Positions 2,233 to 36,800 of a stretch of 64,000 nt of DNA are shown here, piece by piece. A program made the translations under genes and the position numbers. The DNA comes from Lingula anatina (Eukaryota; Animalia; Brachiopoda). The first letter of the stretch is position 1, and every line of letters starts with the position of its first letter. Under the pieces are notes generated by a model that saw only the letters and a program-made list of their open reading frames with translations, searched no databases and was not told where the DNA came from. The stretch spans positions 15,128,001 to 15,192,000 of the forward strand of contig CM120640.1 in assembly GCA_051362555.1 (NCBI GenBank). The letters run 5' to 3'.

Positions 2233-2269
<37 letters not shown>

Positions 2270-8200: not shown

Positions 8201-11200
8201 TCATTACCGATTATTTTTACCCCCCCCCCCCCCCTTTTGAATTCTTTTAAACAGGTTATATGTTTTCATTTTATCTTTAACCCCCCCAGGTCACAGCACT
8301 TACAAAAGTTGGACTCCCTGTAATTTTTAGGAAGTTACAGATGGTAATTTTAAAAATCCTGACACCCAATCTTGGGAAAACCCTGCATGCAACAAACATT
8401 GCTATTTAAGTGCGTAATTATGTGAAGTTGCAATTAGGCTTATTTTGACCCCTCTCCTATTTCTGGAGGCATGTTTTTTTACCGAAAAAAAAAAAAATCC
8501 TCAACTTTCTTTTCGGGTAAGTTGATATAATGAAATCGAGATGCACTTATAAACAGATTATCATTTATCATCAGAAAGTTACTTTGGAAGTAGTGATAAA
8601 TATCCCATAATATATGAGGAACAAGAATAAAAGCCGATAAGGATAAAAGCCCGAAGGTAGGAGTTTTGAAAATTTGTCTTGCCCAGGAGTTGGGGAAACT
8701 TAATTTTGAAAAATTCATCAGATATATGCAATTTAAAATATTAATTAATTTTTAAGCGACGAAATTTTCAAGTTTTCAGTTCTATAATTTTGGTGACATG
8801 AATTGAATAAATGATAGCCACTTTATGTGTACCACTTATGATAGTCTTATGGAAACTTACTTGTAGGGAGCACTGTTGACTTCAGCACTGGCCAGGCTCT
8901 GATCCATGAAAAACAGCAGGGATAATGGAAGAGCCAATCCCATTGCAAGAAACACGTTTCCTATGGTTAAAACATTTAGCGGAGCTCCATCCAGACTTAA
9001 ATCATCCTTATACTCAAAGATACCCACTGGAAAAAACAAAAGCAGAAAAGTTCAAATTAAAATATAATTCCATTTATTGTAAACTTGCACTAAGCTTTGG
9101 GTTGGGGGGGGGGGGGGTAGAGAAGAGGAAATTTTAAATTGACTCTGCTTAATTGTCTCAGATAATGCCCAATGGTAACATATAAAGAATTGTAGTCAAT
9201 GGTATTATAATAAATGTAATATTACACAAATTTACATAAAACTTCTAAACTTGGTAAATACTATCTCACTTATAATAGGATTATAAAAAATGCATAACCA
9301 TTACATTTTATTCCCTGGAAAATGTAAGATCCTACAAAGGTCATGAGAAGACATGATATGGGCAAGGCATAATCAGCAAGCAGCTCTCTATTCTTTTCAC
9401 TCAAGAATGGCCTGGATAAAAATAAATTGAATTTATGCACTACAAATATCCAAAATTGGTTGTAATATCTAAATAGATTAAAGAACTGTTTTAAAAATAC
9501 TGTTTTGATAATAATGAAATTATGATTAGGTGTTTAAGATAACAACAAAGGTATAAAGGGATTTATAGTTTACAGCAAACTGAACTCTAAGAGTGATAAT
9601 ATGCATGATTCAGATGTGGTAGATGCTTACAACTCAACTTTGTTATACTAACGTATGGGTAAAATTATACAAGTATGTCCCAACGAGCAGAGTTCCTATG
9701 GCAAGGAGTAAATACAACATGCTGATTTCTCTCTGACATTTGTCAACTCCTGTTAAACTTGACACATTGGAGATATTGACAAGTTCTGTACTCAAGTCAT
9801 CACATGACTTGTAGTAAACATCAAAATCTGTAAAAAGGTGGGGGCTATTAAATAATTTAAAGACAGTATGATAATTTTCAAAATTTAAAAACTTTGATAA
9901 AAGATTTTATATTAGTTAACATCTGTTGCTTAATGCCATTGTGGGTAAAGATATATTACACTACACAATAACTTCAAATGTAAAATTTTATAAGGTTTCA
10001 GCATAACTTTTTTTATAATCAGCTTAATAAGCAAGGCAGCAACCCTGCCAAATGTACAGACAAAAAGCAGTAAATGATGCATAAAACAGGCTACCATCTG
10101 CTATTTTGATGAATACAATTGTGCCCAATAGCAAATCAACACCAAAATTTTAGTTATGCACAACAGGTAACATATGGATGTAGGTAAAATGTCAATGTGT
10201 AACTAGTATAAAGTTTCAGGTCCAAGAAAGTTCAAATTCACACTTTGAAAATGCCAGAATGAGAAAAATAAAAATTTAAAAAAAAGTGCACAAATTCAAG
10301 GAAAAAAAATGATAATCCAATTGAGCTGGTTTTGCCATTCGAGCTGTATTCCTAAGAATCATTCTTGTAAGTTACAACATAATAATTAACACAGTTTTCT
10401 TTCCATAATGTTTATAGTGGCATTACACAAAGTTATTTATTTATTTATTTATTTATTTATTTTTTGGTTATTTCTGAAGCAATATCACATAATGACTAAC
10501 AGCATGACCACCACCAAATTTTAATTATTTACTATAGTCACAACTTGAAAATGCCAACTGTACAGAAATGAGTTTATTTCCATTTTCAAAACTCTTTTTA
10601 CAAAACACAAAGTATAACCAATTTACTATCATTTTCTGAATTTCATGTGATCTACTGAGAAAATTGTTGAAATGGGAAAAATATCAACAGAACAATTTTC
10701 AATGTCCAATTTGCTCCATTCTGAGATTCTGAACATGGTGAAGGACTGAATCTGACAAACTGCAATGATAGGAGATATCTCCATTTTGACACTTTATTTT
10801 AAAGTGCATGATAACAGATTTACAATCATTTTTATAAAATCAACTAACAATATTGTTAAGATGCAGAAAATGTCAAAAGAACACTTTTACGTATCTAACT
10901 GGAGGATCAGAGAGGCAATACTGCCTCCAGGTATTGTACCCCCAGCTGGAGTAAGCACATTCATAAAGAAAAAAGAAGGGACACCACCTCCAGTGTTGTT
11001 CTTGGCAAGCTCTACAAAATGCAGTAAACAGGAGTTCTCAATTTTTTTGTTGAAAATTAAAATATATATACGGTAAAGTCTTGAAAATTTCGTCGTTCTT
11101 GAAAATTTCGTCGACAGACGATTTTCCGCCGACGTAATTTTTTTCCCTTTGAAAACTTCGTCGACCTTGAAAATGAGGTACTCGATAATTTTTGAAAAGT

Positions 11201-14200
11201 TCGTCACCAAATATGGCGGCGTTGTCCTGCTCAAACGTGAAGGTAATGCATCAGTTGATTCAAGACTGATACGATCAGGATATCATTGCCGATAACACTC
11301 TCAATGGGAGATAGGAACAATAGTGCGCCCCTGCGAGCAGTTACTCACAATATAGATGGTTTAGATGTGAATTCCCGTTCTCAATTGCGGGAACGTCGGC
11401 CTTTTGTCTTTAGTTGCATTACTATTACCTGGCTTAAGGTGCGTTATCAAGCCGGCAAATAGAAGTCACAGGCCGCGTCTTTGTCATTTGTAACGCCGTT
11501 ATTGTTATCGGCGGCTGTCCTAAATGAGGAAGACCGACCCCGACCCCCCCCCCCCCCCACACACACACACACACTTTGGATTTTCATTTGATCTTTGATC
11601 CGCCCCCCCCCCCCCCCTTCCCCCGCTCACGGTATATCTTCGGCGGAGAATCGTTCGCGTAATATCCTCAGGACTTTGTTCGCGTAAGATCATATCAATG
11701 GGAGCTTGACGTAAAGACAATTTTCATATCTTCATCGGGAGATTGTTCGCGATGTAAGCAATAATAAAATGCAGTTTTCATATTAGTTCAAGGAACTTAG
11801 TTTGCGAACGATTGTCAGCGGGAGATCATTATTTAACCCCGCCTCCCCCTTTGAATATTATAAATAATATATATATTTAGTTTTATCTTTAACCCCCCTT
11901 CCCCGCTCACGGCATATCTTCGGCGGAGAATCGTTTGCGTACTATCGTCAGGACTTTGTTCGCGTAAGATCGTCAGAGGGAGATCGTTCGCGATCCGAGC
12001 GAGACGAAAAGGCAATTTTCATATCTTCTTTGGGAGATGGTCCGCGATGTAAGCAAGAATGAAATGCAATTTTCATATTAGTTCAAGGGATTTAGGGAAC
12101 TTCGTTCGCGGAAGATCGTCAGCGGGAGATCGTTCGCGATCCTTGCTAGACGAATAGGCAATTTTCACATCTTCATCGGGAGATTGTTCGCGATGTAAGC
12201 AATAATAATATGCAGTTTTCGTATTAGTTCAAGGAACTTAAATTGCGGAAGATCGTCAACGGGAGATCATTATTTAACTCCCTGTAAATTTTTAGGAAGT
12301 TACAGATGGTATTTTTAGAAGGCCTGACACTCAATCCTGGGAAAAGCCTTGCATGCAACAAACGTTCCCATGTGCGTAATTTTTTTAACGTCCAGCCAGG
12401 TTATGATGCAAGGTTGCAATTAGGCTTATCTTGATCCTTCTCCTCTATCAGGAGGTATGTTTCTTACCGAGAAAATAATTCTCAACATGTTTTCGGGTAC
12501 AGTAAGTTAAATATAACTTAATCGAGATGCACTAATAAATAGATTATTATTTACCACCAGAAAATGACTTAGGAAGTAGTGATAAATATCCCACCATATA
12601 GGAGGGTCAAAGATAACAGTCGCTAAGGAAAAAAGCCCAAAGGCCGGATTTTTGAAAATTTCGTCATACCCAGGAGTCAGTGAGAGGTAATTTTGAAAAA
12701 TTAGTCGGATTTACTCAATTAAAAATATTAATTAATTTTTAAGCGTCGAAATTTTCAAGACTTTACCGTAACTAAATAATGGGGAGAAGTCAAAGGTAAA
12801 ATTCAAGGTGACAAGAAGATTGTCAATATATGAGTTCTTATTCAAGTTCAGTAGTATCTATGGGCATATCTATGCCAGTTTTGGAGATATAAGGGACAGA
12901 AATTTTGCAAAGTTCAGTTCATGATGAAGTGTCAATTTCAAGGTCACAATTTCAAGGTCACAGATTGCCAGTGTATGACTTCCTATTCAAGTTCAATAGC
13001 AAATATGGGCGTATCTCTGACAGTTTTGGAGATATGAGGGACAGAAAAATTGCAAAGTTCAGTTCATGTAAAAAGCAGGTCAAAGGTCAATTTCAAGGTC
13101 ACAGTTAGATTGCCAGTATATGACTTCCTATTCAGGTTCAATAGTTACTATGGGCATATCTCTGCTAATTGAGTTACTGATTAATGAGTACCCAAATGCA
13201 GGGATCGTCCTGGGTCAAAGTGTGGTTGGGCCATTTTGGCCCACTTGGTCAAAAAAAGTTGGCCATTTTTTAAAAAATGTGTGACGTAAATTATTTAGTG
13301 AAAATTATATTTCAATATTTTTATATGATTAAAAACACTGTAAAAGGCACTCTGAAGTCCTAAATAATTGGAGCATGTGGAAAAATCTTCCAAAATTTAT
13401 AATTGTACTGTCCAAAAAATTGTACTGAATGGAAAAATCTTTCAGAACTTATAATTGTACTATGTCGAATAATTGCACTCACTGCATGGAAAAGGTTGAC
13501 AATTCCCACTTTTGTTGTGAAAAAAAAAGCCATTGCTCTGAAAAGAATTCTTCTTTTTAAAAATATTTGCATTCTTTTTTTAACCTGAAAATAATTAAGC
13601 AGTGATCAAAGCTGAGAGAAACCCATCTTATATATATCTATATTTACATAAAATCTAGCAAGCAACTACATAACATTACTAAAATTAGTTGGCATATCTA
13701 TTAATGAATTTACACATTAGGTATTTGTGATTATTACACGATCGACGAGTATAGTTAGATGATCGACGAAAAATAGTGAGAGCATTGGCTTTAATACACC
13801 GTAGACGAGAAATGTTTGACAACTGAATTGACGAAAATAGATGCTGAATTTATGATAGGCTCGTTTAAACTTGAAACTGAATCGATGGGAAGGCAGTGAA
13901 TCGACGAAACATAACTGAATCGTTGACATGAATTTTTGCCCTTTTGGCCGCCCATACGGTATTCTTTATTAGTTGACTTATGAGATTGTAAATATGACTA
14001 AGAAAAAAAAAAAAAAAAGGTTTGTAAAAATTGTCCGTATTTCAGTAAGATTGATCATGTCCACGAGTTTCAAGATAATACGTACGGCTATAGATTTTCC
14101 TTGAAATGTGTTATCACCATCCCATTTCATGCTGATTTTTGAACTTGACCTGCATCTTATGAAAATTCATCAGTTCCATAATATGAAGACAAAAAGTAAA

Positions 14201-17200
14201 ATGGTTTTCTACTTATAGTGATATAATTGAGTACCCAAGTGCAGGGATCGTCCTGGGTCAAAGTGTGGTTGGGCCATTTTGGCCCACTTGGTCAAAAAAA
14301 GTTGGTCATTTTTTAAAAAATGTGTGACGTAAATTATTTAGTGAAAATTATATTTCAATATTTTTATATGATTAAAAACACTGTAAAAGGCACTCTGAAG
14401 TCCTAAATAATTGGAGCATGTGGAAAAATCTTCCAAAATTTATAATTGTACTGTCCAAAAAATTGTACTGAATGGAAAAATCTTTCAGAACTTATAATTG
14501 TACTATGTCGAATAATTGCACTCACTGCATGGAAAAGGTTGACAATTCCCACTTTTGTTGTGAAAAAAAAAGCCATTGCTCTGAAAAGAATTCTTCTTTT
14601 TAAAAATATTTGCATTCTTTTTTTAACCTGAAAATAATTAAGCAGTGATCAAAGCTGAGAGAAACCCATCTTATATATATCTATATTTACATAAAATCTA
14701 GCAAGCAACTACATAACATTACTAAAATTAGTTGGCATATCTATTAATGAATTTACACATTAGGTATTTGTGATTATTACACGATCGACGAGTATAGTTA
14801 GATGATCGACGAAAAATAGTGAGAGCATTGGCTTTAATACACCGTAGACGAGAAATGTTTGACAACTGAATTGACGAAAATAGATGCTGAATTTATGATA
14901 GGCTCGTTTAAACTTGAAACTGAATCGATGGGAAGGCAGTGAATCGACGAAACATAACTGAATCGTTGACATGAATTTTTGCCCTTTTGGCCGCCCATAC
15001 GGTATTCTTTATTAGTTGACTTATGAGATTGTAAATATGACTAAGAAAAAAAAAAAAAAAAAGGTTTGTAAAAATTGTCCGTATTTCAGTAAGATTGATC
15101 ATGTCCACGAGTTTCAAGATAATACGTACGGCTATAGATTTTCCTTGAAATGTGTTATCACCATCCCATTTCATGCTGTTTTTTGAACTTGACCTGCATC
15201 TTATGAAAATTCATCAGTTCCATAATATGAAGACAAAAAGTAAAATGGTTTTCTACTTATAGTGATATAATTGAAAGTGCACAGCGACGACTACAACAGA
15301 TGCAGGTGATGGCTATATATACAGACACATCAGTGTCTCTACATAAAAATCAGCAGTGTAAAAATTTACAAAATGTAAATATTTCATGCAGTAAATTGTA
15401 TAATTATTACTTCATCTACGCTTAGAAAGAAGAAACATTCATACGTACTGTACACAATGTCTTTACTAGCATCAAATATGAATGCAGCAGACACAAAAAC
15501 TGCAGTTATCTCTTCTGTGGATCTAAAATTCATACAAACAATATTATGGCTTCGGTATGAAATAAAGATGCATTAATATTTTACAAACAAGGAAAAAAAG
15601 TGTCACTAAAGGTCAAATACAAAATACCTTAAAACATAATCACAACAATTCACAATTTTACTTATTATTACTTCATGATGTTACCTCCAATAAAAGATTT
15701 GACTTTTCTTACAGCCATGTAATAAAGTAATGCTACAATTTCAGTAATCTAAGGTGGATAACTTGAACCAGAGTAACTTGCAACTGCAAGATATACATTG
15801 TACCTTGTTGACCAATGTGCGAGTTGGCTCACATCAAAAACAGCATACAGGATTAAAAAGAGAGCATTAAAGAGACCCACACAAGAATACATGGCAGGGA
15901 AATCAATTCCATAGCTCTCAGCAACTTGATCGATGACTAGAAAGAATAGAACATCCCTATCTGTACAGCAGACTAAGAGAGAGAGAGTGACAAAAAGTCA
16001 GACAAAATAGTGCCAAACGAAAGAGATAAAGAAATGCTGTGAAGAACTTTGTAAAGGACAAAACAATGTTCAAGAATGTAATCAGTGATGTCCTTTAAGC
16101 CAGTGTTCAGTGCTGCCAATGGCAAAAATAATCCCTTTCCCTAAATCTATTGGTACCCTAATTATTATAGAGCAGTCACTGTATATACAGCCCTTCTCAC
16201 AACCTCTGAACATGGAGATCACAAAAAATGTACATATGCAGGGACAAGATTTTTCCAACTATTGACATATTTCCGACTTTTTGGGCGCCAAAAATATCAT
16301 TGGCCTAGTCAGTCCCCTGATAATTGTTTTAAAAGTTTTCTTTGCAGCTGGATTTATCTATATTTCATTTCTTTTTAATTGTCATGCAGAAATGTATGTA
16401 CCACAAAAATGCATTGTTCATAAAAAGTACTTACTGATGATGAATAAACTAATTGGAGCTGTGGTCATTATAATCATCATAGGCTGGCCTCCAAACAGTG
16501 AAAAAACCATACCTGCAATTGTCTGAGCTAAGATGTGATCTTTAACGGCTGAAAACCACAACATAAATACCAGTTCAGATCTGTGAAGCAAAAAATTTAA
16601 GTTTTTACAATTGCATCACCATAAAAAACTTTTTTTACTAAATTGTGGGATACCTTCTAGGTATGTTACATATATCCCACATTGCTTCAATAAATGAAAC
16701 AATAATGAAGTGAAATTTTTGAACCAGGACTTTAGGTGAAGGTGATATGAAGAAATTTTGGTGAATAATATGCAATACCAAAAAGCTATAGGTTGACATA
16801 TTAATCCTATTAAAATTTTCAATATCAACTTAAAAAAAAAAATTGAAGCAAAATCTCCCAGGCTATGGAGTCCATGGGAGACAAGCAAATATTGAGGGTT
16901 TATTGCAAGAGATAGAATTACATGGAGATGATTAAAAAAATAACTGTGCCTCAAATTTGACGTGAATATCAGCGAGAAACACATTGCAATTTTGGTGGAG
17001 AAAAACAGAAATAAGTATTCTAAAACTTACAAGGCAATACAAACACAATACTATTGACAAACTAAATAATTTGCAAAAGAAATTTCATTTTTAATTATTA
17101 TAAATGACAGCAAATTGTACCCATGGCTCCATGTGTGCTTTTGTGATTCACTTCACTGAATGCAATGGTTGGTAACAAGCAAGAGAAATACAAAAAGATG

Positions 17201-20200
17201 GTTGATGACAGGCACTTGGAAATTGTGTTTGGACCAACAATGCCTAGAAATACACAAAATAACTGTTAAAGTAATATTAAGATACTGATTTCAGTATAGT
17301 TTGAATTTTGATACTGCTCCAGTTTTTGTTCTTCTCATATGCATCTAACAGTACATTATGGGAAAATCAGGTAAAGGTAACAGTAGAAGGAATGCACAGG
17401 CGCCGGGTATGACCCACCTATCTTCAATGAAAACTTTGGAAACTTAAGTTAATTTCTTTTAAATTTTTTGCTAAAATTTAATTTTTCAAAACCTTAAATG
17501 CTTGAGGCATTTTTTCATGCACGTAAAACATCGTTCAAAATAAATGAGAAGCAAAACATAAGAGTGGAGAAGAGACATACTGAACATATATATTATTTTA
17601 TACCTTCTGCTAGAACTAAATTTTGATTTATTTTCTTACCATCTCTATAGTCAGACCAATAATAAGGGAGTCTTCTTTTCAAATCAGCTAGCATTCCTCT
17701 TCCAGGATAGAAGCTCCCCTAAAATCCACTTTTAGACTTAGGCTTGGTTCACATGCAATGTCTATTTTCTAAATTCTATTTGCAGTATGTCTTATGATCA
17801 CGGTCAGTGCCCTGAATATCCCGCGGAGTAATTACTAGCAGCGCGAGCCAGTTACTATAAGTTACTATAAGTAACTGGCTCACGCTGCCAGTAATTACGC
17901 GGCGGGATATTCAGGGCACAGACCGTGATCATAAGATAACGCGAATAGAAAATAGATTTTTAGAAAATAGACATTCCATGTGAACGAAGCCTTAGTACAA
18001 GCACGTTTTGGTTTTCAACAGGATAGTGTGGGAGAATGAGCTCAAAAACATACAGGCACATAATGATGAAAAGGGCATATCAAAAATCCATACCTGGCAA
18101 TAAACAGCTTCTGATGAATATAAAAAAAAAATAGAAAAAGTGACATAAGGTTTAAAAAAAAACACCTTTAACTCATCCACCAGTGCTTCTGAAGTGCTAC
18201 CCTTTCTCATATCTGGCTTGCTCTCCTGTTTAGACAACTCCTCCGAATGTTCCAAGAGTAACTGCTTGAAGCCTGCAACATTGTGGACATCATGCAATTC
18301 TTGTCTGAAGCGCAAATCTGCGAAGATGGTGGCTAATGCCTGTCCTGTGACTAGGGCTTCTTTAGATCCGGACTGAAAGGAAAAAGCAAATATTATGAAC
18401 TGATTCAGATATTTCATTTATACATAAGGGTTGTTCAAAAAGTTCTAAGCCTCACCTAAAAGGAGTTGTAGAAACAAGACACTTTTGTCATGAGCCATAT
18501 TTTTCGAGTTTCCTTAATTTTTCAAGCTCTTTATTCATTCTACAGAATTCTGCAGAATCCAAGACATCAGCCATTTAAAGACCCAACATGTACAAATTTA
18601 GATTCCCAAGGAATTTAATCAGTTTGATACAGGGGAAATTTCATTACATGTTAAAATACATGGAAGGCAAAAATCTAATTTTGTGTCAGAATCCCAAAAT
18701 ATCTCAGGAAACAAACGGTGTGACTGTCTGTCTCATGCTCTTCTTGTATTGATTCAAATTTATTTAATTCTTTATGCTTCCTTATGCTTTCTAAAGTTAA
18801 ACACCGAAAACAACGCTTATTTAGGTGAAAATGTTCATTCTTTGCTGGAAAAGCTACATCCTTTGGGGTAAACCTACATTGCCATTTAACCTCGTCATCT
18901 TGATTCTCACAAATACATGGCAGTTATTGTAGCACAAGAAAATTATAAGTTAAAACTATTTTAATTTCATATATTTTGGTCCCCGGTTCTCACTAGGAAG
19001 TCACAAAAAGTTTGCAAAATGAATTTGACTGACAAAATTGCCAATATCAGCAACCTGTTGGTCCTCAAGACAGACAAGGAAAAACTTATTGGTCAACTTA
19101 TTCATGTCAACCAAATGTTGTGTATGTTTAATCAAAAGTATCTAATCATATGCATGGAAAGTTGTAACAAGGCAGCAAAGCTGTCAAATGTACAGACAAA
19201 AAACAGAAAATAATTGTAGCCGTATGAATGTATTTTCTTCATTCGTGTTCGTCTTTTGTTTTGTCACGTGGGCGTCATCTTACTCTCTCATTCCCATTGG
19301 TCATCTTTCCCGCCTTTCGTCGCTTATAAATATCGTCGCTGCCCTTTTTCTGTCATTCTTCTTTGCTCATCGCTCTTTATATATTTACAGGTACGTGGTC
19401 AATAGTTTAATTCTTTTATGAATATTATCATTATTATTATTATACTTATTATATATTAAGATTATAGCTATTAACTAGAGGATCAGAGAGGCGATACCGC
19501 CTCCGAATATTGTACCACCAGCTGGAGCAAGCGCATTCGTATAGACCCCCACATACACAAAATAAGGGACACAGCCACCAGTCTTATGCTTGACAAGCTA
19601 TAAAAATGCAATCAACAAGAATTTTCAAAATACGCAAAAAATATATATTACTTAAAATGGTACAATCAAAGTTAGGTTAAGGTAGGTCAAAGGTCAATTT
19701 CAAGGTCACAGTAAATTGACTTTCTATTCAACTACAATAGCAGTGTAACTTTGGAGATAAAAGGGAACCAAAATTTGCAAAGTTCAGTTCATGGTGAAAA
19801 GTAGTTCAAAGGTCAATTTCAAGGTCACAGTAAGATTGCCAGTATATGACTTCCTATTCAACTTCAATAGTAACTATGGACCTATCTCTGCCAGTTTTGG
19901 AGATAAAAGGGAACCAAAATTTGCAAAGTTCAATTCATGATAAAAAGTAGGTCAAAGGTCAATTTCAAGGTTACATTAAGATTGCCAGTATATGACTTCC
20001 TATTCAACTTCAATAGTAACTATGGACCTATCCCTGCCAGTTTTGGAGATAAAAGGGAATCAAAATTTGCAAAGTTCAGTTCATGGTGAAAAGTAGGTCA
20101 AAGGTCAATTTTAAGGTCACATTTAGATTGCTAGTATATGACTTCCTATTCAACTTCAATAGTAACTATGGACCTATCTCTGCTAGTTTTGGAGATAAAA

Positions 20201-23200
20201 GGGAAGCAAATTTTCCAAAGTTCAGTTCATGGTGAAAAGTAGGTCAAAGGTCAATTTCAAGGCCACATTTAGATTGCCAGTATATGACTTCATATTCAAG
20301 TTCAATAGAAACTATGGACCTATCTCTGCCAGTTTTGGAGATAAAAGGGAAGCAAAATTTGCAAAGTTCAATTTATGGTGAAAAGTAGGTCAAAGGTCAA
20401 TTTCAAGGTCACAGTAAGATTGCCAGTATATGACTTCCTATTCAACTTCAATAGTAACTATGGACCTATCTCTGCCAGTTTTATAGATATAAGGGACTAA
20501 ATGTTATAATTTCGGAGTTACCATAATGTGCCATAAATTTCCTACAGAAAAAATTAATTAAAATAAAGAAAAGGTCATTTTGGTCAAAATTCTTGAAATG
20601 GGAGGTGCTCTGAAGTTCCAGAAGTTCAAATTTGATGAAATAATGTCATTTTTGAACACAAGTTGTCTGCTTTGCCTAGCCTTATGTTTTATTTTTCCGG
20701 AGTTCAAAATTTATTATCCATTACCGTACTGCACATTTTGCTTTAACCACCAAAATGTACTTTTTGATACAGCGTAACTTTGCAGATAAAAGGGAAGCAA
20801 AATTTGCAAAGTTCAGTTCATGATGAAAAGTAGGTCAAAGGTCAATTTCAAGGTCACAGTAAGATTGCCAGTATATGACTTCCTATTCAACTTCAATAGT
20901 AACTATGGACCTATCTCTGCCAGTTTTGGAGATAAAAGGGAACCAAAATTTGCAAAGTTCAATTCATGATAAAAAGTAGGTCAAAGGTCAATTTCAAGGT
21001 CACATTTAGATTGCCAGTATATGACTTCCTATTCAACTTCAATAGTAACTATGGACCTATCTCTGCCAGGTTTGGAGTTAAAAGAGAAAGAAATTAGCAG
21101 AGTTCAGTTCATGGTGAAAAGTAGGTCAAAGGTCAATTTTAAGGTCACATTTAGATTGCCAGTATATGACTTCCTATTCAACTTCAATAGTAACTATGGA
21201 CCTATCTCTGCTAGTTTTGGAGATAAAAGGGAAGCAAAATTTCCAAAGTTCAGTTCATGGTGAAAAGTAGGTCAAAGGTCAATTTTAAGGTCACATTTGG
21301 ATTGCCAGTATATGACTTCCTATTCAACTTCAATAGTAACTATGGATCTATCTCTGCCAGTTTTGGAGATAAAAGGGAAGCAAAATTTGCAAAGTTCAAT
21401 TTATGGTGAAAAGTAGGTCAAAGGTCAATTTCAAGGTCACAGTAAGATTGCCAGTATATGACTTCCTATTCAACTTCAATAGTAACTATGGACCTATCTC
21501 TGCCAGTTTTATAGATATAAGGGACTAAATGTTATAATTTCGGAGTTACCATAATGTGCCATAAATTTCCTACAGAAAAAATTAATTAAAATAAAGAAAA
21601 GGTCATTTTGGTCAAAATTCTTGAAATGGGAGGTGCTCTGAAATTCCAGAAGTTCAAATTTGATGAAATAATGTCATTTTTGAACACAAGTTGTCTGCTT
21701 TGCCTAGCCTTATGTTTTATTTTTCCAGAGTTCAAAATTTATTATCCATTACCGTACTGCACATTTTGCTTTCACCACCAATATGTACTTTTTGATACAG
21801 CGTAACTCGAAAACCGTATGGAATACAAAAAAACGGAGACCACCTCCAGTGTTGGGCTTTACATGCTCTACAAAATGCAAAAAAGAATGGGTTTCTAGCA
21901 TTAACGGTTCCCGAATTACAGACAGTTTTCAGTTTCGGTATCTTATGGCCGCTACACCCGTGAAAATGCACCGATTGACCCCAAATTCACACAGATGAAA
22001 GATGACCTGAAGGGTAATATTTTCCAATAATTTTATTGGTTAAGTCTGTGTGGTGTCTGAATAACAGCGCAAATAAATTTTTTTTCGTAAAAAAATTCAT
22101 TTTTTTGAAAATTTTTGCCCGTTTGACCTTGAAATAAAGGTCAAAGGTCAAATCCAAGGGCATATTTGAAATCTACACATATGACTTTTGGAAAGCCGTC
22201 TGTAGAAATTTTTCCCATAATTCCTTCCGTAGGGTAGATAATTAGCATTTAATTTTGCCATTTTTGGACAAGGGTGCATTGCAATGAGTGCCACACCTAG
22301 ACCCCAATACCGATAAAGCCCAAATTTTACGTGGAACGAGTTGAGATTATAGGTGACCTAAATCCAAGAGATGGGTATGGGGGCCCTTACCGTCTAGGAG
22401 GAGAAGCGGTAACGGTAACATGGCGGCGGAGCCGGCAGAGCCGCAGGAGCCGGCGGAACGGACCGGACGGGACCAAAACCATGTGTACCGCCAGCGCTAA
22501 CGCTGGTGGTACAATAACATTATTATGATGATCGCACATTCTTCTTTGCTCATCGCTCTTTATATATTTACAGATGGTATGGAATAAATAAGAACAAAGA
22601 GAAATAGACTTTGTAGTGAACCGTTGCATATGGCGCTGCGAGCATTTATTTTGATTAGGTGTACAGGTATGTAGATAATTTACTTTGAACTTGCAAATTT
22701 GTTTAGTTTTCACATTTTAGTGAAATTCCCTTGTCATAACAATTGTTTGTGGTGTTTATGTACATTAATTAAAGTGTGTGGTGTCATGTATGTTTTTGGA
22801 ATGTCATAACTAACACCAAACCTTATACTTCTATATTTGTTGCATTGGGGAATAGAGACAAAGACATTAAATATTGTGCTCATTTATTTATTTAATTTTC
22901 ATCTGATATCACTGAGTTATAGATTATCATTATTGTACCACCAGCGTAGGCGCTGGCGGTACACATGGTTTTAGTCCCGACCCGTATGTTCCGCCGGCTC
23001 CGCCGGCTCCTGCGGCTCCGCCGGCTCCTGCGGCTCCGCCGCCAAGTCACCGTTACCGCTTCTCCTCCTAGATGGTAAGGCCCTCCATACCCATCTCTTG
23101 GATTTAGGTCACGTATAATCTCAACTCGTTCCACGTAAAATTTGGGCTTTGTCGGTATTGGGGTCTAGGTGTGGCACTCATTGCAATGCACCCTTGTCCA

Positions 23201-26200
23201 AAAATGGCAAAATTAAATGCTAATTATCTCCCCTACAGAAGGAATTATGGGAAAAATTTCTACAGACAGCTTTCCAAAAGTCATATGTGTAGATTTCAAA
23301 TATGCCCTTGGATTTGACCTTTGACCTTTATTTCAAGGTCAAACGGGCCAAAATTTTCAAAAAAACAAAATTTTTGCCGAAAAAAAAGTTATTTGCGCTC
23401 TTATTCAGACACCACACAGACTTAACTAATAATATTAATGGAAAGTGTTACCCTTCGGGTCATCTTTCATCTTCGTGAATTTGGGGTCAATCGGTGCATT
23501 TTCACGGGAGTAGCGGCCATAAGATATCGAAACTGAAAACTGTCTCTAATTCGGGAACCGTTAATGCTAGACACTCATTCTTTTTTGCATTTTGTAGAGC
23601 ATGTAAAGCCCAACACTGGAGGTGGTCTCCGTTTTTTTGTATTCCATACGGTTTTCGAGTTACGCTGTATCAAAAAGTACATATTGGTGGTGAAAGCAAA
23701 ATGTGCAGTACGGTAATGGATAATAAATTTTGAACTCCGGAAAAATAAAACATAAGGCTTGGCAAAGCAGACAACTTGTGGTCAAAAATGACATTATTTC
23801 ATCAAATTTGAACATCTGGAACTTCAGAGCACCTCCCATTTCAAGAATTTTGACCAAAATGACCTTTTCTTAATTTTAATTAATTTTTTCTGTAGGAAAT
23901 TTATGGCACATTATGGTAACTCCAAAATTATAACATTTAGTCCCTTATATCTCCAAAACTGGCAGAGATAGGTCCATAGTTACTATTAAAGTTGAATAGG
24001 AAGTCATATACTGGCAATCTTACTGTGACCTTGAAATTGACCTTTGACCTACTTTTCACCATGAACCGAACTGTGCAAATTTTGCTTCCCTTTTATCTCC
24101 AAAACTGGTAAAGATAGGTCCATAGTTACTATTGAACTTGAATGGGAAGTCATATCCTGGCAATGTAAATGTGACCTTGAAATTGACCTTTGACCTACTT
24201 TTCACCATGAACTTAACTTTGCAAATTTTGCTTCCCTTTTATCTCCAAAACTGGCAGAGATAGGTCCATAGTTTCTATTGAAGTTGAATAGGAAGTCATA
24301 TACTGGCAATCTACATGTGACCTTAAAATTGACCTTTGACCTACTTTTCACCTTGAACTGAAATTTGCAAATTTTGCTTCCCTTTTATCTCCAAAACTGG
24401 CAGAGATAGGTCCATAGTTTCTTTTGAACTTGAATAGGAAGTCATATACTGGCAATCTACATGTGACCTTAAAATTGACCTTTGACCTACTTTTCACCTT
24501 GAACTGAACTTTGCAAATTTTGCTTCCCTTTTATCTCCAAAACTGGAAAAGATAGGTCCATAGTTTTTTTTTAATTTGAATGGGAAGTCATATCCTGGCA
24601 ATGTAAATGTGACCTTAAAATTGACCTTTGATCTACTTTTCACCATAACCTGAACTTTGCAAATTTTGCTTCCCTTTTATCTCCAAAACTGACAGAGATA
24701 GGTCCATAGTTTCTATTGAACTTGAATAGGAAGTCATATACTGGCAATCTACATGTGACCTTAAAATTGACCTTTGACCTACTTTTCACCATGAACTGAA
24801 CTTTGCAAATTTTGCTTCCCTTTTATCTCCAAAACTGGCAGAGATAGGTCCATAGTTTCTATTGAACTTGAATAGGAAGTCATATACTGGCAATCTACAT
24901 GTGACCTTAAAATTGACCTTTGACCTACTTTTCACCATGAACTGAACTTTGCAAATTTTGCTTCCCTTTTATCTCCAAAACTGGCAGAGATAGGTCCATA
25001 GTCTCTATTGAACTTGAATAGGAAGTCATATACTGGCAATCTACATGTGACCTTAAAATTGACCTTTGACCTACTTTTCACCATCAACTGAACTTTGCAA
25101 ATTTTGCTTCCCTTTCATCTCCAAAACTGGCAGAGATAGGTCCATAGTTTCTATTGAACTTGAATAGGAAGTCATGTACTGGCAATCTACATGTGACCTT
25201 AAAATTGACCTTTGACCTACTTTTTACCATGAACTGAACTTTGCAAATTTTGCTTCCCTTTTATCTCCAAAACTGGCAGAGATAGGTCCATAGTCTCTAT
25301 TGAACTTGAATAGGAAGTCATATACTGGCAATCTACATGTGACCTTAAAATTGACCTTTGACCTACTTTTCACCATAAACTGAACTTTGCAAATTTTGCT
25401 TCCCTTTTATCTCCAAAACTGGCAGAGATATAGTCCATAGTTACTATTGAAGTTGAATAGGAAGTCATATACTGGCAATCTTTAAGTGACCTTAAAATTG
25501 ACCTTTGACCTTCTTTTCTCAATGAACTGAACTTTGCATATTTTGCTTCCCCTTTATCTCCAAAACTGGCAGAGATAGGTCCATAGTTTAATAGTTTAAC
25601 TAGGTCCATAGTTTAACTTTGATTGTACCATTTTTAGTTATATATATATTTTTTGCATATTTTGAAAATTCTTGTTGATTGCATTTTTACAGCTTGTCAA
25701 GCACAAGACTGGTGGCTGTGTTCCTTATTTTGTGTATGTGGGGGTCTATACGAATGCGCTTGCTCCAGCTGGTGGTATAATATTCGGAGGCGGTATCGCC
25801 TCTCTGATCCTCTAGTTAATTTTTTTTTTTCGGATTTCTATAGTATTAAAATATCTTAGTATTAATATCACTTACCTATTTTTGCAAATAACTTCATTTA
25901 ATTTTTTATTAATTACAGTAAGTAAAGTGATTATAATTCTTATTGTTTCAATATAATTGGGGTTAAAGAGTTAAATATTTTCACCACGTAAAATAAGATC
26001 AGAGTCATCTGTTTTTTTTTTTTTCTTCACTATTTTTCTTATTTCATTTTCCATTTTATCATTTATCTCATATAGTGCTCATATCATATCTCATATTTTC
26101 AGAAAGTCGGATGTTACCTAATTGATTAAAATTATTTTTCACTCTTTCTCTAATTTTGATATTCAATCTATCGGTTTAAGCTTCATCATTTATCAATCTA

Positions 26201-29200
26201 TCATTTGTCATATTTCATATTTTTCGAAGTTTGGGCTTTAAGCTATTAATTTTTTTACATTGCAATCACTGTCATAATTTTATGTTATATCTGGCCTCAT
26301 CTTATGTCATTTTTTCTTGCTCGAGGCATTTTGCACTCACTTGATTTACCCTTTGATATATACCATTATTAGTATCTCAAAGATAACGTTATAATGGCTT
26401 CTCTGTGTGGAAGGACTGTGTGGTTGAAAGGGTTAAACAAGAAGTGTGCAAGGAAAGATATTGAAAGGATGTTATACAAAGAAGGTTTTGAGTATGACCA
26501 CATTGCATTTCAGGGAAGATGTGCTGCTTTAGTGTTTAGAGTGCATTTCCGCAGAACAATTCATTAACCACGCTGACGCGGGACTGTACATAAAAGGTAC
26601 TAAAGTTAAGGCATCGTCTCCAGCGCCGACAGAGGAGATGTTTATGGTGAGATTATTCGGGTTTACAGGTGACGAAGAATTAACCAAAGCGCAGGAAGCT
26701 CCAAAGGCCTCGCAAAGGGGTACGCGACCTAAAAATTCGAGTGCTTGTTTACATGGTCCAAGATCGATATCTTCTGAGGATGACGGAGAAGTCGCAGTCT
26801 CAGATAAAATTTCGAATCTTCCGTATTCATGCACTGAAAAGACTGATGTTTCTATTCATTCTGTTGGACCTCCTAGAATTACCTTGTTTTCGGGAGAAAG
26901 CGGCAAGGGCGAAGTCACATATAATCAGTGGAGGTTTGAAGTGATAGCATTACTAGGTGATCGTGTTTTTTCCGAACCGATTATTTTACAAGCAATCCGT
27001 AAATCAGTTCGAGGATCAGCAGCCGATGCTTTAATGCATTGCGGGGAAGGAGCTTTTGTCAACACAATATTGCAGAAATTTGACAGTATTTTTGGAGACG
27101 TGGTACCCGTTGCATGGGAAAAGTTTTACTCAGCAACCCAATACTCTAATGAGAAAGTTGTTAATTGGGCTTCTCGTTTAGAAGCATATTTTGATACAAT
27201 TAGTAGAGTAGATCCAGAGTTAGGGAAGGAAAAAAACGTGATAGAATTTTACGTTCGAAATTTTTCTCTGGATTGTTTTCAGTCAACGTTAAGCATGCAT
27301 TGAGGCATCATTACCATTCCGGAGAAACTTTTCAGGAATTGATGGTAAGTGCATGTGTGGCAGAATTAGAATTTTCAGGCTCCCGTGAAACTTCCTCATA
27401 CCAAGGTAAGCCTCAGTCTGATGTTTCCGTAGACTTGATGAAAAAAGTAGATATGTTAGCTTCTCGCATATCAGATTTAGAGCACTCTGATCCAAATGAC
27501 ATTTCTCAACGGAAAAATTGTGTTTATGAAGACAAAGATGAAATTTTCTCTGTCTTAGAAATGAATAGGAATTTAGATTTGTTGGTGTCGGGCATGGAAA
27601 AAATCGGCCGTCGGGTAAGTGATTTGGAGGAAAAAATGAGTGAGTCACAGAACAGAAATGCAAAGCCAATTGTTTGCTTTAAGTGTAATCAGGAAGGACA
27701 TATTTCTTCCAGGTGCCCTTTAAACGCACAAGGGTCGTCGATTCCGGGGCCCAGACCCTCGACCCAGTAAAGCGGGCCACGATTATTGGTAAAGTAAATG
27801 AAACAAAGGTGTGTGTTGATGGTATAGCATGTAATGCGTTGATAGATACCGGTTCAATGATTTCAACTGTATCAGAACATTTCGTGAAAGAGTGGTTAGG
27901 GAGAGAAATTATCCCTTTAAAAGATGTGTTGAATGTAGAATCGGCAGGGGGACAGATAGTACCTTATTTAGGATCTGTTGAAGTATATGCAACGGTTCAC
28001 TACAAAGTCTATTTCTCTTTGTTCTTATTTATTCCATACCATCTGTAAATATATAAAGAGCGATGAGCAAAGAAGAATGTGCGATCATCATAATAATGTT
28101 ATTAATAGCTATAATCTTAATATATAATAAGTATAATAATAATAATGATAATATTCATAAAAGAATTAAACTATTGACCACGTACCTGTAAATATATAAA
28201 GAGCGATGAGCAAAGAAGAATGACAGAAAAAGGGCAGCGACGATATTTATAAGCGACGAAAGGCGGGAAAGATGACCAATGGGAATGAGAGAGTAAGATG
28301 ACGCCCACGTGACAAAACAAAAGACGAACACGAATGAAGAAAATACATTCATACGGCTACATAATGATGCAAAATAGGTCATTTTGTCAATTTTGATGCA
28401 ATATGCTTATAATAGCACTGTTAGTCAACACTGAATTTTAATCATGCACAACAGGTAACATGGTCAATAACAGGAGCGGACCCAGAGATATTTTCTGACA
28501 GTATTCCAAAGTATCTTTGTTGATCCATCCTCCATTTTGATGGTCTTCCAACAGAAAAAAAATAAATATCGGTCAATATAAACTTAAAAACCCGACCATC
28601 TTCCGGAAGACCCAAAAGATGGTCTCAATCCATCCCTTCAATAAGATTACACTTTCAGGACCATGAGAATTCAAATTCACATGATGAAAGTCCCAATATT
28701 TGAACAAGGCAGCAAAGCTGTCAAATGTACAGACAAAAAACAGAAAATAAAGATGCAAAAAAGGTCATTTTGTCAATTTTGATGCAATAATAAATAATGC
28801 TTATAATAGCACTGTCAGTCAACACTGAATTTTAATCTTGCACAACAGGTAACATGGTCAATAACAGGAGCGGACCCAGAGATATTTTCTGACAGTATAA
28901 CAAAGTATCTATGTTGATCCATCCTCCATTTTGATGGTCTTCCAACAGAAAAAAATAGATACCAGTCAATATAAACTTAATAACCTGACTGTCTTCCGGA
29001 AGACCCAGAAGATGGTCCACCCCTTCAATAAAATTACAGTTTCAGGACCATGAGAGTTCAAATTCACATTATGAAACTTTCAATATTTGAAAAATGATGA
29101 CAGTGCATAAAATAATATTACATAATGTTTAAAGACATAAAAAACAATACAACTGCTTATGTGGAAATACAGAAAATGTGCAGAGCCCCAGGCAGATGAG

Positions 29201-32591: not shown

Positions 32592-32637
<46 letters not shown>

Positions 32638-33825
32638 GGTAAAGTCTTGAAAATTTCGACGCTTAAAAATTAATTAATATTTTTAATTGAGTAAATCCGA
32701 CTAATTTTTCAAGATTACCTCTCACCGACTCCTGGGTATGACGAAATTTTCAAAAATCCGGCCTTTGGGCTTTTTTCCTTAGCGACTGTTATCTTTGACC
32801 CTCCTATATGGTGGGATATTTATCACTACTTCCTAAGTCATTTTCTGGTGGTAAATAATAATCTATTTATTAGTGCATCTCGATTAAGTTATATTTAACT
32901 TACTGTACCCGAAAACATGTTGAGAATTATTTTCTCGGTAAGAAACATACCTCCTGATAGAGGAGAAGGATCAAGATAAGCCTAATTGCAACCTTGCATC
33001 ATAACCTGGACGCGACGTTAAAAAAATTACGCACATGGGAACGTTTGTTGCATGCAAGGCTTTTCCCAGGATTGAGTGTCAGGCCTTCTAAAAATACCAT
33101 CTGTAACTTCCTAAAAATTTACAGGGAGTTAAATAATGATCTCCCGTTGACGATCTTCCGCAATTTAAGTTCCTTGAACTAATACGAAAACTGCATATTA
33201 TTATTGCTTACATCGCGAACAATCTCCCGATGAAGATGTGAAAATTGCCTATTCGTCTAGCAAGGATCGCGAACGATCTCCCGCTGACGATCTTCCGCGA
33301 ACGAAGTTCCCTAAATCCCTTGAACTAATATGAAGATTGCATTTCATTCTTGCTTACTTCGCGGACCATCTCCCAAAGAAGATATGAAAATTGCCTTTTC
33401 ATCTCGCTCGGATCGCGAACGATCTCCCTCTGACGATCTTACGCGAACAAAGTCCTGACGATAGTACGCAAACGATTCTCCGCCGAAGATATGCCGTGAG
33501 CAGGGAAGGGGGGTTAAAGATAAAACTAAATATATATATTATTTATAATATTCAAAGGGGGAGGCGGGGTTAAAATAATGATCTCCCGCTGACAATCGTT
33601 CGCAAACTAAGTTCCTTGAACTAATATGAAAACTGCATTTTTTTATTGCTTACATCGCGAACAATCTCCCGATGAAGATATGAAAATTGTCTTTACGTCA
33701 AGCTCCCATTGATATGATCTTACGCGAACAAAGTCCTGAGGATATTACGCGAACGATTCTCCGCCGAAGATATACCGTGAGCGGGGGAAGGGGGGGGGGC
33801 GGATCAAAGATCAAATGAAAATCCA

Positions 33826-33870
<45 letters not shown>

Positions 33871-36800
33871 GGGGGGGGGGGGGGGGGAGGGGTCGGGGTC
33901 GGTCTTCCTCATTTAGGACAGCCGCCGATAACAATAAAGGCGTTACAAATGACAAAGACGCGGCCTGTGACTTCTATTTGCCGGCTTGATAACGCACCTT
34001 AAGCCAGGTAATAGTAATGCAACTAAAGACAAAAGGCCGACGTTCCCGCAATTGAGAACGGGAATTCACATCTAAACCATCTATATTGTGAGTAACTGCT
34101 CGCAGGGGCGCACTATTGTTCCTATCTCCCATTGAGAGTGTTATCGGCAATGATATCCTGATCGTATCAGTCTTGAATCAACTGATGCATTACCTTCACG
34201 TTTGAGCAGGACAACGCCGCCATATTTGGTGACGAACTTTTCAAAAATTATCGAGTACCTCATTTTCAAGGTCGACGAAGTTTTCAAAGGGAAAAAAATT
34301 ACGTCGGCGGAAAATCGTCTGTCGACGAAATTTTCAAGAACGACGAAATTTTCAAGACTTTACCGTAACTTCCAGAAAATTAACTAATGAGACAGATTTT
34401 CCAACTGAAGCTGTATTTTAGTCCTATGTTTCTTTCCTTTAAGTGTAAAAAGAGCAAGTGACATGGTTTTCCTTTCACAGTCACTACGGAGGCAGTGCCC
34501 AAAATAGGGTTTTGTTCATTTTTGATGCCATATTACACAATGCTTAACAGCATAATAACCATCAGTTTTTAATGACAAAATAAAACTATCATGGATATTC
34601 ACAAAATGTGTCTAGCCCACAGAGTTCAGACACACTTTGAAAATCCCAAAATCTAAACAAGAGAAACTGAATTGAAAAGAGTTTATTTCCATTTTCAATA
34701 CCTTTTTTTACATAAAAAAAAATAATAATCGATTTACTGTCATTTTTATATGATCAATTAAAATATGTTGTCAAAGGAAAAATATCAATAGAACAAATTT
34801 AAATGTCCAACTTGCTCCATTCTGAGATTCTTAACTTAGTGAATGATGAATCTGACAAACTGCAATGATATGAGTTCCTTTCCATTTTTGATACTTTATT
34901 ACACAATGCACAATAAAAGGTGCACTGTCATTTTTATATAATCAACTAACAATGTTATAAAGATGCAGGAAATGTCAAACAAACACTTTTACGTATCTTA
35001 TTAGTTCAATAATGAGACTGTTAACATGCCTAAGAATTGAATCTGAGGAAATGTGAAAAACAGCATAACTTCTAAGATAATGGCCCGATTATGCTGATTT
35101 TCCAACTCGTCCTACGTTTTAGTAAGATTGACCAGTCCTGTGAGTATAATGACAATTTGCCCGTCTGTTTTTCTTATATTGTGTTATCAGTGCTGCATTT
35201 ATGCTGAAAAAAGTGAAAAAACAGCATAACTTCCCTTAAAATGGCCCGATCATGCTGATTTTCGAACTTGACCTGCGTATTATAAATATTCATCAATTCT
35301 GTAAGTTTCAAGCCAAAAGGTAAAACGGTTTTTCACTTATTGTGTTATTGGTGTTGCATATATGCTGAAAAAAGTGAAAAAACAGCATAACTTCCATAAA
35401 ATTGACCCGATAGCTCTGATTTTCGAACTTGACCTGCATATTATGAATATTCATCAGTTTTATAAGTTTCAAGCCAAAAAGTAAAAAGGGGTTTCACTTA
35501 TCATGTTATTGGTGTTATAATAATGCTAAAAAAAGTTAAAAACAGCATAACTTCCCTAAAAATGGCCCGATCATGCTGATTTTCGAACTTGACCTACGTA
35601 TTATGAATATTCATCAGTTCTGTAAATTTGAATACAAAATGTAAAACGGTATTCCACTTATCGTGTTATCGCTGAGTGCACGGCGACGACAGACACAGGT
35701 GACGGCTATATGTACAGACACATCTGTGTCTGTACATAAAAATTGAAAATCCTGAAAACATTGTGTCCTACTTCTAATTCACTGCTTGCTAGATTAAAGT
35801 TTGGGGGTGGTCGGCTCATGCCTTGATTAAACTACCTCTAATCAAAATAACACGATCCAAGGCTGGGCCCCTGGAGACGTGTTTTGACAGCGCCCCTAGT
35901 TAAAAGCTTTGAGATTGTTTGTGGGATGCTTCAGATTGAGAGTTAATGCTCTAATTCCCTTTGATTTTTCTCTTTCACGTTTGTGTAACGGAGTGATTTT
36001 ATGTATCAGTTTATATTTTTTTATCTGATAGTGTGACTGTTCATAGCCATATACAGCGTACTGCTTTTGGCTAGCATGACGTGAGGTGTCTCACCTCAGC
36101 GTGGTGTAGGAGGCGTCTCACCTCTGTATGAAATTGACCAAAGATAGGAAATAGGTTGTACGGGAAACGTACAACCTGATAGGGGAAGGGGGTGGACTGG
36201 TTGCAGGTCGGTCATCAGCTGCAGAGTCCGAAAGATAGGGGTGTTAGGGGGGTGGTCAGTGCTATATTGCGACAAATGGTTTTCACAAGGGGAAAACCCA
36301 AGTTCTCATCAAAGGTGTCTCGCCTTTGTGAGTGTGTGTCTGCTTGTGCAGATTGTAAATGCACTTATGTGCGAGGACGTCTCGTCCTGACAAAGGTGTC
36401 TCGCCTTTGTATGTGTGTATCTGCTAGCAGATCATAGTGAGAGTGGGGTATCCAGAGAATTAGCCAGAAATGGACTGACTGGGAGTGTAATTATAAAATC
36501 TGGGAGTGTAATAGCAACGAGGTCCAATGGACAGAAACACGGCCAGAGGCCACAGCAGGGGGGTAGAGGGATATGCCCCCCTCCGCAGGTGGGAGTTTGC
36601 GGGTCCTCCCCCAAGAAAATTTGGATTTTGAGAGGCAATTTGGGTCATTCTTGTGATATTTGGATATTAAATTTAACAAAATTTGGCCCTATTAAATGGT
36701 AGTTTTTAATATTGTTTGATCAAGTGCAACACACAATAAGTATGTAGAAAGTATCAGGCAAAAAAATTTCTTTACAACAATGTCACAGTCACACCAATCA

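What the first reader, a model, noticed from the sequence alone, without database searches (positions are those of the whole stretch)
19211..28365. Gypsy-type gag-protease element with inverted LTRs and an intact 4-bp TSD
Seen: a 374-bp LTR (TG..CA, TATA box, AATAAA) followed by a tRNA-Ser PBS, gag, -1 frameshift and protease. The protease is cut at 27987 and joined to a complete, apparently identical LTR in the OPPOSITE orientation. Both outer ends are therefore the U3 end (TGTAGCCG), and they are flanked by TAAT/TAAT. The paralogous empty site is visible at about 28741 (CAGAAAATAA-AGATGCAAAA), so the unit appears to have integrated as one piece. Established: Metaviridae have direct LTRs; DIRS have inverted repeats but no protease or TSD; Ginger DNA transposons have TGT termini, TIRs and 4-bp TSDs with a Gypsy-like integrase but no gag. 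Inference: an integrase used two U3 ends of an aberrant cDNA (plus-strand strong-stop DNA jumping into protease via TAT microhomology, or one-ended autointegration), producing a TIR-like retroelement. Gag has two frameshifts while the LTRs look identical, which hints at trans-mobilisation of an already defective unit. It could be a propagating inverted-LTR family or a one-off event.
Basis: partly seen in the sequence, partly recalled or inferred. Interest (0 to 1): 0.9.

Follow-up and report, generated by a model that had tools for sequence, protein, structure and literature searches.

The report
Gypsy insertion with two U3 ends
A broken Gypsy-type jumping gene has its two identical end-repeats facing opposite ways under a single 4-base insertion scar; it is most likely a one-off copying accident that the family's integrase would still have pasted in, not a new mobile family.

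Summary
The structure is real: identical 374-bp LTRs in inverted orientation, U3 ends outward, TAAT on both flanks, in register in a high-copy host repeat whose empty form has TAAT once. Corrections: 5.9 of the 9.1 kb are two nested HINE-like repeats, one splitting the left LTR; the protease ends at 27985; microhomology is 1 nt, not TAT. In 4 of 5 DNA runs the family's contig passes 27985 into other sequence (3.6 kb in one), which does not start with TA. So the inverted LTR keeps the two bases that integrase normally trims: the inner joint is an untrimmed reverse-transcription end, not autointegration. No listed contig of 5 samples shows the inverted joint (tables cut). The unit has no purine tract, direct R repeat, RT or integrase. 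Best reading: a one-off two-U3 cDNA from a decayed copy, integrated in trans (0.7). The locus itself is not confirmed by reads. This scan noted three similar insertions in other genomes (unchecked); ten literature searches found no description. Interest 0.38.

The parts
19166..19210 (+). 5' part of the host repeat copy (target), continues at 28362
   Evidence: 48 nt identical to paralogue 28703-28750; empty form in family contigs
19211..19214 (+). left copy of 4-bp target site duplication TAAT
19215..19474 (+). left LTR, nt 1-260 (U3 end outward, TATAAA at nt 111)
   Evidence: 0 mismatches to right LTR
19475..22514 (+). nested non-autonomous repeat 1, HINE (Helentron)-like: subterminal inverted repeat, 146-bp tandem array, 3' hairpin, no TSD beyond a shared AA
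   Evidence: features as in PMC7492417 passages
22515..22628 (+). left LTR, nt 261-374 (AATAAA, ends TTGCA)
   Evidence: 0 mismatches to right LTR
22629..22630 (+). 2-nt spacer TA between LTR and primer binding site
   Evidence: X4 record 25; X3, X8 loose ends; X8 record 10
22933..25815 (-). nested non-autonomous repeat 2, same HINE-like family, in the leader
   Evidence: 89-95% to repeat 1, inverted
26394..27770 (+). broken gag (PNMA-type capsid, CCHC knuckle), frame breaks near 26550 and 27250
27719..27725 (+). slippery heptamer TTTAAAC, predicted -1 frameshift into protease
   Evidence: phase checked, downstream hairpins predicted
27689..27985 (+). protease frame with DTG motif, cut at 27985
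   Evidence: Pfam Asp_protease_2; family contigs leave the window at 27985
27985..27987 (-). inner joint: untrimmed TA of the LTR's U5 end plus one base shared by protease and primer binding site
27988..28361 (-). right LTR, complete, inverted (U3 end outward)
28362..28365 (+). right copy of target site duplication TAAT
28366..29094 (+). rest of the host repeat copy and its uninterrupted tandem paralogue (28703-29094)
   Evidence: 89%; very high depth in all four runs

Best explanation
This is a dead Gypsy-type insertion with two identical, outward-facing U3 ends under one 4-bp duplication, most likely made once when a reverse-transcription intermediate was mis-joined and then integrated by the family's integrase supplied in trans. 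Shown: the anatomy; the true TSD; the family's normal form (LTR-TA-PBS at the 5' end, protease running on into 3.6 kb of further internal sequence); the inner joint falls exactly two bases beyond the LTR's CA with one shared base. Inferred: (1) an already decayed copy (frame breaks, leader deletion starting inside the PBS) was transcribed and packaged by intact family members; (2) a short plus-strand strong-stop copy of the LTR, ending at U5-TA without a usable PBS copy, could not make the normal second jump and was joined by 1-nt microhomology to the sense strand inside the protease (mis-priming by RT; snap-back of the nascent plus strand or host end joining would give the same sequence); (3) completion gave a linear DNA with two U3 ends, which integrase inserted into a high-copy repeat; (4) HINE-like repeats landed in it, one after the LTRs were copied. 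The unit cannot be copied again by the normal LTR route and encodes no enzyme to move itself.
For: LTRs identical at 374 of 374 and both carry a base at LTR nt 126 (28236 and 19340) that differs from the majority contigs of 5 of 5 DNA runs: one template. Flanks collinear with the host repeat; empty form with a single TAAT in 13 (X2) and 15 (X3) contigs. Family contigs match the protease up to 27985 and then run on for 61, 61, 61 and 3,628 letters in X1, X2, X4, X8; the X8 continuation does not begin with TA, so TA comes from the LTR end. Integrase removes the bases beyond CA before joining (PMC12789967 section 21; PMC2644782 passages, where loss of the dinucleotide marks autointegrants). A free U3 end arises only from plus-strand strong-stop DNA (scheme in PMC6894440 passages; the 'only' is my inference). 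No purine tract before either U3. 17 listed internal places where all four runs differ from the window, spread 3/4/5 over codon positions (12 counted), against 0 LTR-LTR differences: P about 0.003 if all decay came after insertion. Mis-directed plus-strand strong-stop transfer is the proposed cause of asymmetric HIV proviruses (PMC9278108 passages).
Against: No read or contig confirms any of the three junctions: the window's own individual does not seem to be among the runs (best share of words 0.66), and no genome is held. One shared base cannot tell mis-priming from snap-back or end joining. The parent's continuation letters come from one contig of one run (X8); in X1, X2, X4 only the end point 27985 is given. 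That this family's integrase trims TA is taken from retroviruses, not tested. Two 3-kb nested insertions with no LTR substitution sit uneasily with a young insertion; gene conversion between the inverted LTRs is not excluded. No paper held describes in vivo integration through two U3 ends.
Confidence: 0.7

Rival explanations
1. Two-step genomic rearrangement: a second, inverted family copy inserted into the right TSD of a normal element (or a tail-to-tail cDNA dimer integrated by its two U3 ends), and the unstable palindrome later lost its centre, from the protease of one arm to the PBS of the other.
For: Gives the same outer junctions; long near-perfect palindromes are unstable (established knowledge); would allow time for decay and nested insertions.
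Against: The deletion must stop within 1-3 bases of the natural cDNA end out of several kb; the two-insertion form needs the same 4-bp site twice; LTRs share a private base and are identical while the interior has decayed. Plain recombination between inverted LTRs cannot do it: it keeps the U5 half beside the right TSD and swaps TSDs, which is not seen.
Confidence: 0.1
2. Assembly or library artefact (chimeric read or amplification inversion).
For: No run laid shows any of the three junctions; the region is dense in inverted repeats.
Against: The inner joint has a 1-nt overlap, so an assembler would not join it unaided; an artefact would also need a second switch exactly at the U3 end that restores TAAT and the register of the host repeat; no N in the window.
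Confidence: 0.07
3. A propagating inverted-LTR family moved in trans by Gypsy integrase (TIR-like element).
For: Both ends are intact integrase substrates; the template looks older than the insertion; contig tables are cut and contigs drop rare variants, so a few copies could be missed.
Against: 0 of 5 DNA runs list a contig across the inner joint, while 4 of 5 pass it unbroken in the parent form and a minority variant at 0.13-0.21 of internal depth survives in 4 of 4 runs. No purine tract, direct R repeat, RT or integrase; excision by such integrases is unshown (PMC2836005 Discussion).
Confidence: 0.06
4. One-ended autointegration: integrase joined a U5 end into the protease on the opposite strand, the product integrated by two U3 ends, and LTR-LTR recombination later removed one internal region.
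For: Opposite-strand autointegration is known for HIV-1 and Arabidopsis elements and would put a U5 end against antisense internal sequence, as here.
Against: The joint keeps TA beyond CA and the parent protease does not supply it; processed ends lose these bases; needs an extra recombination step.
Confidence: 0.04

Closest known systems
Metaviridae (Ty3/Gypsy) LTR retrotransposons with PNMA-type gag
   Same: TG...CA LTR with TATA and AATAAA (motifs as in PMC3601003 passages), PBS two bases inside, gag with CCHC knuckle, -1 slippery site, aspartyl protease, 4-bp TSD; 1,503 gag relatives at E<=0.001, and 20 of 20 scanned match PNMA.
   Different: LTRs inverted, two U3 ends, no purine tract, no RT, RNase H or integrase; clade not fixed because pol was not readable.
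Aberrant reverse-transcription insertions: asymmetric and inverted HIV-1 proviruses (PMC9278108), template-switch complex elements of Triticeae (PMC1950507)
   Same: Defective or rearranged cDNA made by strand mis-transfer and then integrated as one unit.
   Different: In the passages and abstract read those keep one U3 and one U5 end in direct orientation; here both ends are U3.
Autointegration inversion circles (HIV-1 PMC2644782; Arabidopsis SISYPHUS PMC7197481)
   Same: An LTR end joined to internal sequence on the opposite strand.
   Different: Those are circles with processed CA ends and are dead ends; here the joint is untrimmed and the product is chromosomal with a TSD.
Ginger1/Ginger2 DNA transposons (PMC2836005)
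   Same: TGTAG fits the TGTNR terminus, inverted terminal repeats, 4-bp TSD, AT-rich target as in Ginger2.
   Different: No integrase gene, 374-bp repeats are whole LTRs (Ginger TIRs 40-270 bp), carries gag and PBS, one known copy. The paper's proposed route uses two separate insertions around an integrase; this unit shows a one-step route but caught gag-protease.
DIRS-1 (PMC7192593)
   Same: Inverted terminal repeats around gag.
   Different: DIRS repeats are non-identical, with an internal complementary region and tyrosine recombinase; none is seen here, and a protease, PBS and TSD are.
HINE / Helentron non-autonomous elements (PMC7492417), for the two nested repeats
   Same: Subterminal inverted repeat, central tandem array, 3' hairpin, insertion at TT/AA without a TSD.
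   Different: No autonomous partner identified; family not named.

Membership tests
Metaviridae (Ty3/Gypsy) element | LTR with TG...CA, promoter and polyA motifs, tRNA-type PBS just inside | tested here: met
   same LTR-TA-PBS joint in X3 and X8 contigs; tRNA identity recalled only
Metaviridae (Ty3/Gypsy) element | gag and aspartyl protease of Gypsy type | tested here: met
Metaviridae (Ty3/Gypsy) element | two LTRs in direct orientation with a purine tract before the 3' LTR | tested here: not met
   inverted, no purine tract: a derivative of the family, not a canonical member
Metaviridae (Ty3/Gypsy) element | RT, RNase H and integrase, and their order | not testable with these tools
   absent from the unit; the parent runs on 3,628 letters but the tool gives only 30
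Metaviridae (Ty3/Gypsy) element | 4-6 bp target site duplication | tested here: met
   TAAT twice; once in empty family copies
Ginger DNA transposon | TGTNR termini, TIRs, 4-bp TSD | tested here: met
   repeats longer than the 40-270 bp reported
Ginger DNA transposon | Gypsy-like integrase gene between the TIRs, or several copies sharing ends with an autonomous element | tested here: not met
   no integrase frame; joint not listed in 5 DNA runs
DIRS | non-identical inverted repeats, internal complementary region, tyrosine recombinase | tested here: not met
   LTRs identical; no further LTR match inside the unit apart from the LTR's own 37-nt repeat; no recombinase frame
Autointegration product | processed CA end joined directly to internal sequence | tested here: not met
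   TA kept; parent continuation does not begin with TA (one contig)
Inversion by recombination between inverted LTRs | swapped or inverted TSD halves, U5 end beside the original right TSD | tested here: not met
   direct TAAT pair, U3 at both ends
HINE (nested repeats) | subterminal inverted repeat, tandem array, 3' hairpin, TT site, no TSD | tested here: met
HINE (nested repeats) | ends shared with an autonomous Helentron | not testable with these tools
   no genome held

The most novel reading that the evidence does not exclude
Mis-joining of a short plus-strand strong-stop LTR is a recurrent, undescribed route by which Gypsy elements make integrase-competent units with two U3 ends, turning LTRs into terminal inverted repeats in one step; when the captured piece holds the integrase, this would be the missing path from Gypsy to Ginger-type DNA transposons, and this unit may already have a few trans-mobilised copies.
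Probability: 0.12. Interest if true: 0.75.

Novelty: new variant of a known kind. Interest (0 to 1): 0.38.

Why it matters
It is a clean genomic fossil indicating that an LTR-retrotransposon integrase can use two U3 ends in a germ line, and its inner joint marks the untrimmed U5 end of the cDNA to the base. The Ginger paper calls the steps from LTR retrotransposon to TIR transposon unclear and proposes two separate insertions (PMC2836005 Discussion); this anatomy offers a one-step alternative that can be counted in long-read assemblies, where finders that demand direct LTRs would pass it over (inference). As a single dead copy without integrase it changes little on its own.

Tried and rejected
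Whole-genome copy count: not possible, no genome held. RNA: no RNA holder listed; about 6 in 100 of runs X12 and X15 gave 2 reads each, on the LTR only: no evidence either way. Word-indexed protein searches for longer relatives found none (75 and 1,348 candidates, 0 passed); PDB search of the protease 0 hits; metagenome scans gave 0 gag loci of 181 stretches and one 20-nt chance match, L001, with no further likeness. Rfam and ARAGORN found nothing. P0122 has gag followed by integrase, which might hint at Gmr1-like domain order, but it lacks a protease motif and is 1 of 150 hits: not used. TAT microhomology rejected. Inversion by recombination between inverted LTRs rejected on TSD geometry. Papers not held: the Ty1 plus-strand strong-stop paper, the Ty1 autointegration paper and the alt-EJ paper; the last was seen only through a review's passages. 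PMC9258317 passages held nothing relevant. Look-ups of earlier scan notes by sequence and by place gave nothing. No supplements were read.
Full report
1. The observation. The right LTR lies at 27988-28361 on the minus strand, 374 bp, TG...CA, with TATAAA at nt 111 and AATAAA at nt 329. It equals the left LTR at 374 of 374 positions, but the left one is in two parts, 19215-19474 and 22515-22628, with 3,040 bp between them. That insert and a second, inverted 2,883-bp copy in the leader (22933-25815) have a subterminal inverted repeat, a 146-bp tandem array and a 3' hairpin, and sit at AA/TT without a duplication, the features given for HINE elements in the passages read of PMC7492417. The rest is LTR, TA, PBS, leader, a gag in three frames, TTTAAAC at 27719 in phase for a -1 shift, and a protease frame. 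The gag piece has 1,503 relatives at E up to 0.001; 20 of the best 150 were scanned and 20 of 20 match PNMA. No other gag or protease match lies in the window.

2. The TSD is real. TAAT stands at 19211-19214 and 28362-28365. The two flanks are consecutive parts of one copy of a host repeat: 48 left-flank bases are identical to, and about 350 right-flank bases 89% like, the tandem paralogue at 28703-29094. That paralogue reads TAAA. The repeat is of very high copy number, and 13 contigs of run X2 and 15 of X3 carry left-flank letters directly before 28361, that is the uninterrupted form with one TAAT (table 7, a cut table).

3. The parent family. No genome is held. Of 21 runs listed, 10 hold the stretch; I laid 7: five DNA contig sets from five samples and three studies, and two RNA read sets. 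In 4 of 5 DNA runs a contig follows gag-protease to exactly 27985 and then runs on unlike the window for 61, 61, 61 and 3,628 letters (X1, X2, X4, X8); in X3 the listed protease contigs stop at 27975. In X3 and X8 the LTR contig runs from 27985 into PBS and leader, the normal 5' arrangement. So an ordinary, longer family exists. The one continuation whose letters are shown (X8) does not begin with TA, so 27986-27987 are the LTR-PBS spacer, and only 27985 is shared by both sides. The window's PBS agrees with the family's for 14 bases and then differs; contig lengths (X4 record 25, X8 record 10) suggest about 0.8 kb of leader is missing (inferred).

4. Is the inverted joint a family? 0 of 5 DNA runs list a contig across it. 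The tables are cut (11,541 pieces not shown; 29 pieces and 4 loose ends) and contigs drop rare variants, so this excludes only a sizeable family. As a yardstick, a 43-base duplication variant at 0.13-0.21 of internal depth survives in 4 of 4 runs. The outer junctions were not seen either, so the locus is private or rare, or was dropped, and rests on the assembly. The unit has no purine tract before either U3 end, no direct R repeat, and no RT or integrase frame, so the normal cycle (PMC6894440 passages) could not copy it again.

5. Order of events. One search lists 17 places in 25830-27985 where all four runs differ from the window (103 rows not shown). Twelve lie in coding frames away from breaks (four non-coding places and one beside a frame break left out) and fall 3, 4 and 5 on codon positions 1-3, as in unselected decay. 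At that rate about 5.9 differences are expected between the LTRs if decay followed insertion; 0 are seen (P about 0.003). Both LTRs share one base (nt 126) that differs from the majority of 5 of 5 DNA runs. Against a very young age stand the two nested repeats, unless they came along from the source copy, which is testable.

6. Mechanism. Integrase removes the bases beyond CA and joins CA to the target, giving a 4-6 bp duplication (PMC12789967 section 21 part 1); loss of the dinucleotide is the mark of HIV-1 autointegrants (PMC2644782 passages). Here the outer ends are flush TG/CA against a TSD, while the inner end keeps TA. So integrase likely made the outer joints and not the inner one. The right arm is exactly U3-R-U5-TA, the form of a plus-strand strong-stop copy that has not copied the primer (inference from the scheme). 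I commit to mis-joining of such a copy onto the sense strand in the protease, followed by completion and integration through two U3 ends (0.7). A PBS cut to 14 bases in the source would hinder the normal second jump (inference). Snap-back of the nascent plus strand or host end joining give the same sequence; a role of alt-EJ at this step was seen only in a review's passages (PMC11092383). Rivals: palindrome-then-deletion 0.10, artefact 0.07, mobile family 0.06, autointegration 0.04. Recombination between inverted LTRs cannot place a U3 end at the right TSD.

7. Comparison and novelty. It derives from a Gypsy-type family but fails the direct-LTR test; it fails the defining tests of DIRS (PMC7192593 passages) and Ginger (PMC2836005 passages and Discussion), though its ends fit TGTNR with a 4-bp TSD. 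Related accidents in print are asymmetric or inverted HIV-1 proviruses (PMC9278108 passages), template-switch elements (PMC1950507 abstract) and inversion circles (PMC7197481 passages). Ten searches (terms on inverted LTRs, two U3, strong-stop, autointegration, template switch, Ginger, Helentron) listed no paper whose title, abstract start or read passages describe an integrated element with two U3 ends and a TSD; the library lacks most subscription papers, three key papers were not held, and no supplements were read. This scan noted three similar insertions in other genomes (e1-9921380, e1-9998558, e1-9507202), which I did not check and which are leads, not support. PMC3601003 (passages) gave the LTR motifs. 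The tRNA-Ser label and the guess that the host is an invertebrate animal are recalled or inferred and come from no call.

8. Verdict. A real, well-bounded and unusual structure; most likely a single dead product of aberrant reverse transcription integrated through two U3 ends. New variant of a known kind; interest 0.38. If such units prove recurrent and one encloses an integrase, the route would bear on the open origin of Ginger transposons (probability 0.12, interest 0.75).

Noticed in passing
window 27687-27729: All four runs hold a minority family variant that goes back 43 bases over the slippery site at the gag-protease border (0.13-0.21 of internal depth).
   Followed up: no
window 19741-21807: Nested repeat 1 holds an internal tandem duplication of about 1,039 bp at 97.2% identity.
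   Followed up: no
window 2060-4317: A third, older copy (83-85%) of the nested HINE-like family, with the same ends; further pieces at 10896-11041 and 12785-13170.
   Followed up: partly
window 11069-12778 and 32627-34367: An inverted pair of a 1.7-kb repeat at 96.9% identity brackets the whole region.
   Followed up: no
window 13175-15274: A tandem duplication of about 1,050 bp at 99.3% identity; recent duplication or assembly artefact.
   Followed up: no
window 28043-28079 and 28186-28222: The LTR holds an exact internal 37-nt direct repeat; family contigs vary around it.
   Followed up: no
window 28228-28362: Runs X1 and X3 hold a diverged LTR subfamily matching only the U3 end (15 differences in 135 bases).
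   Followed up: no
P0122: A gag relative fused directly to an integrase with no protease motif.
   Followed up: partly
window 58232-58690: An open frame of 152 codons on the plus strand with a 69-bp tandem repeat at 58472-58603.
   Followed up: no
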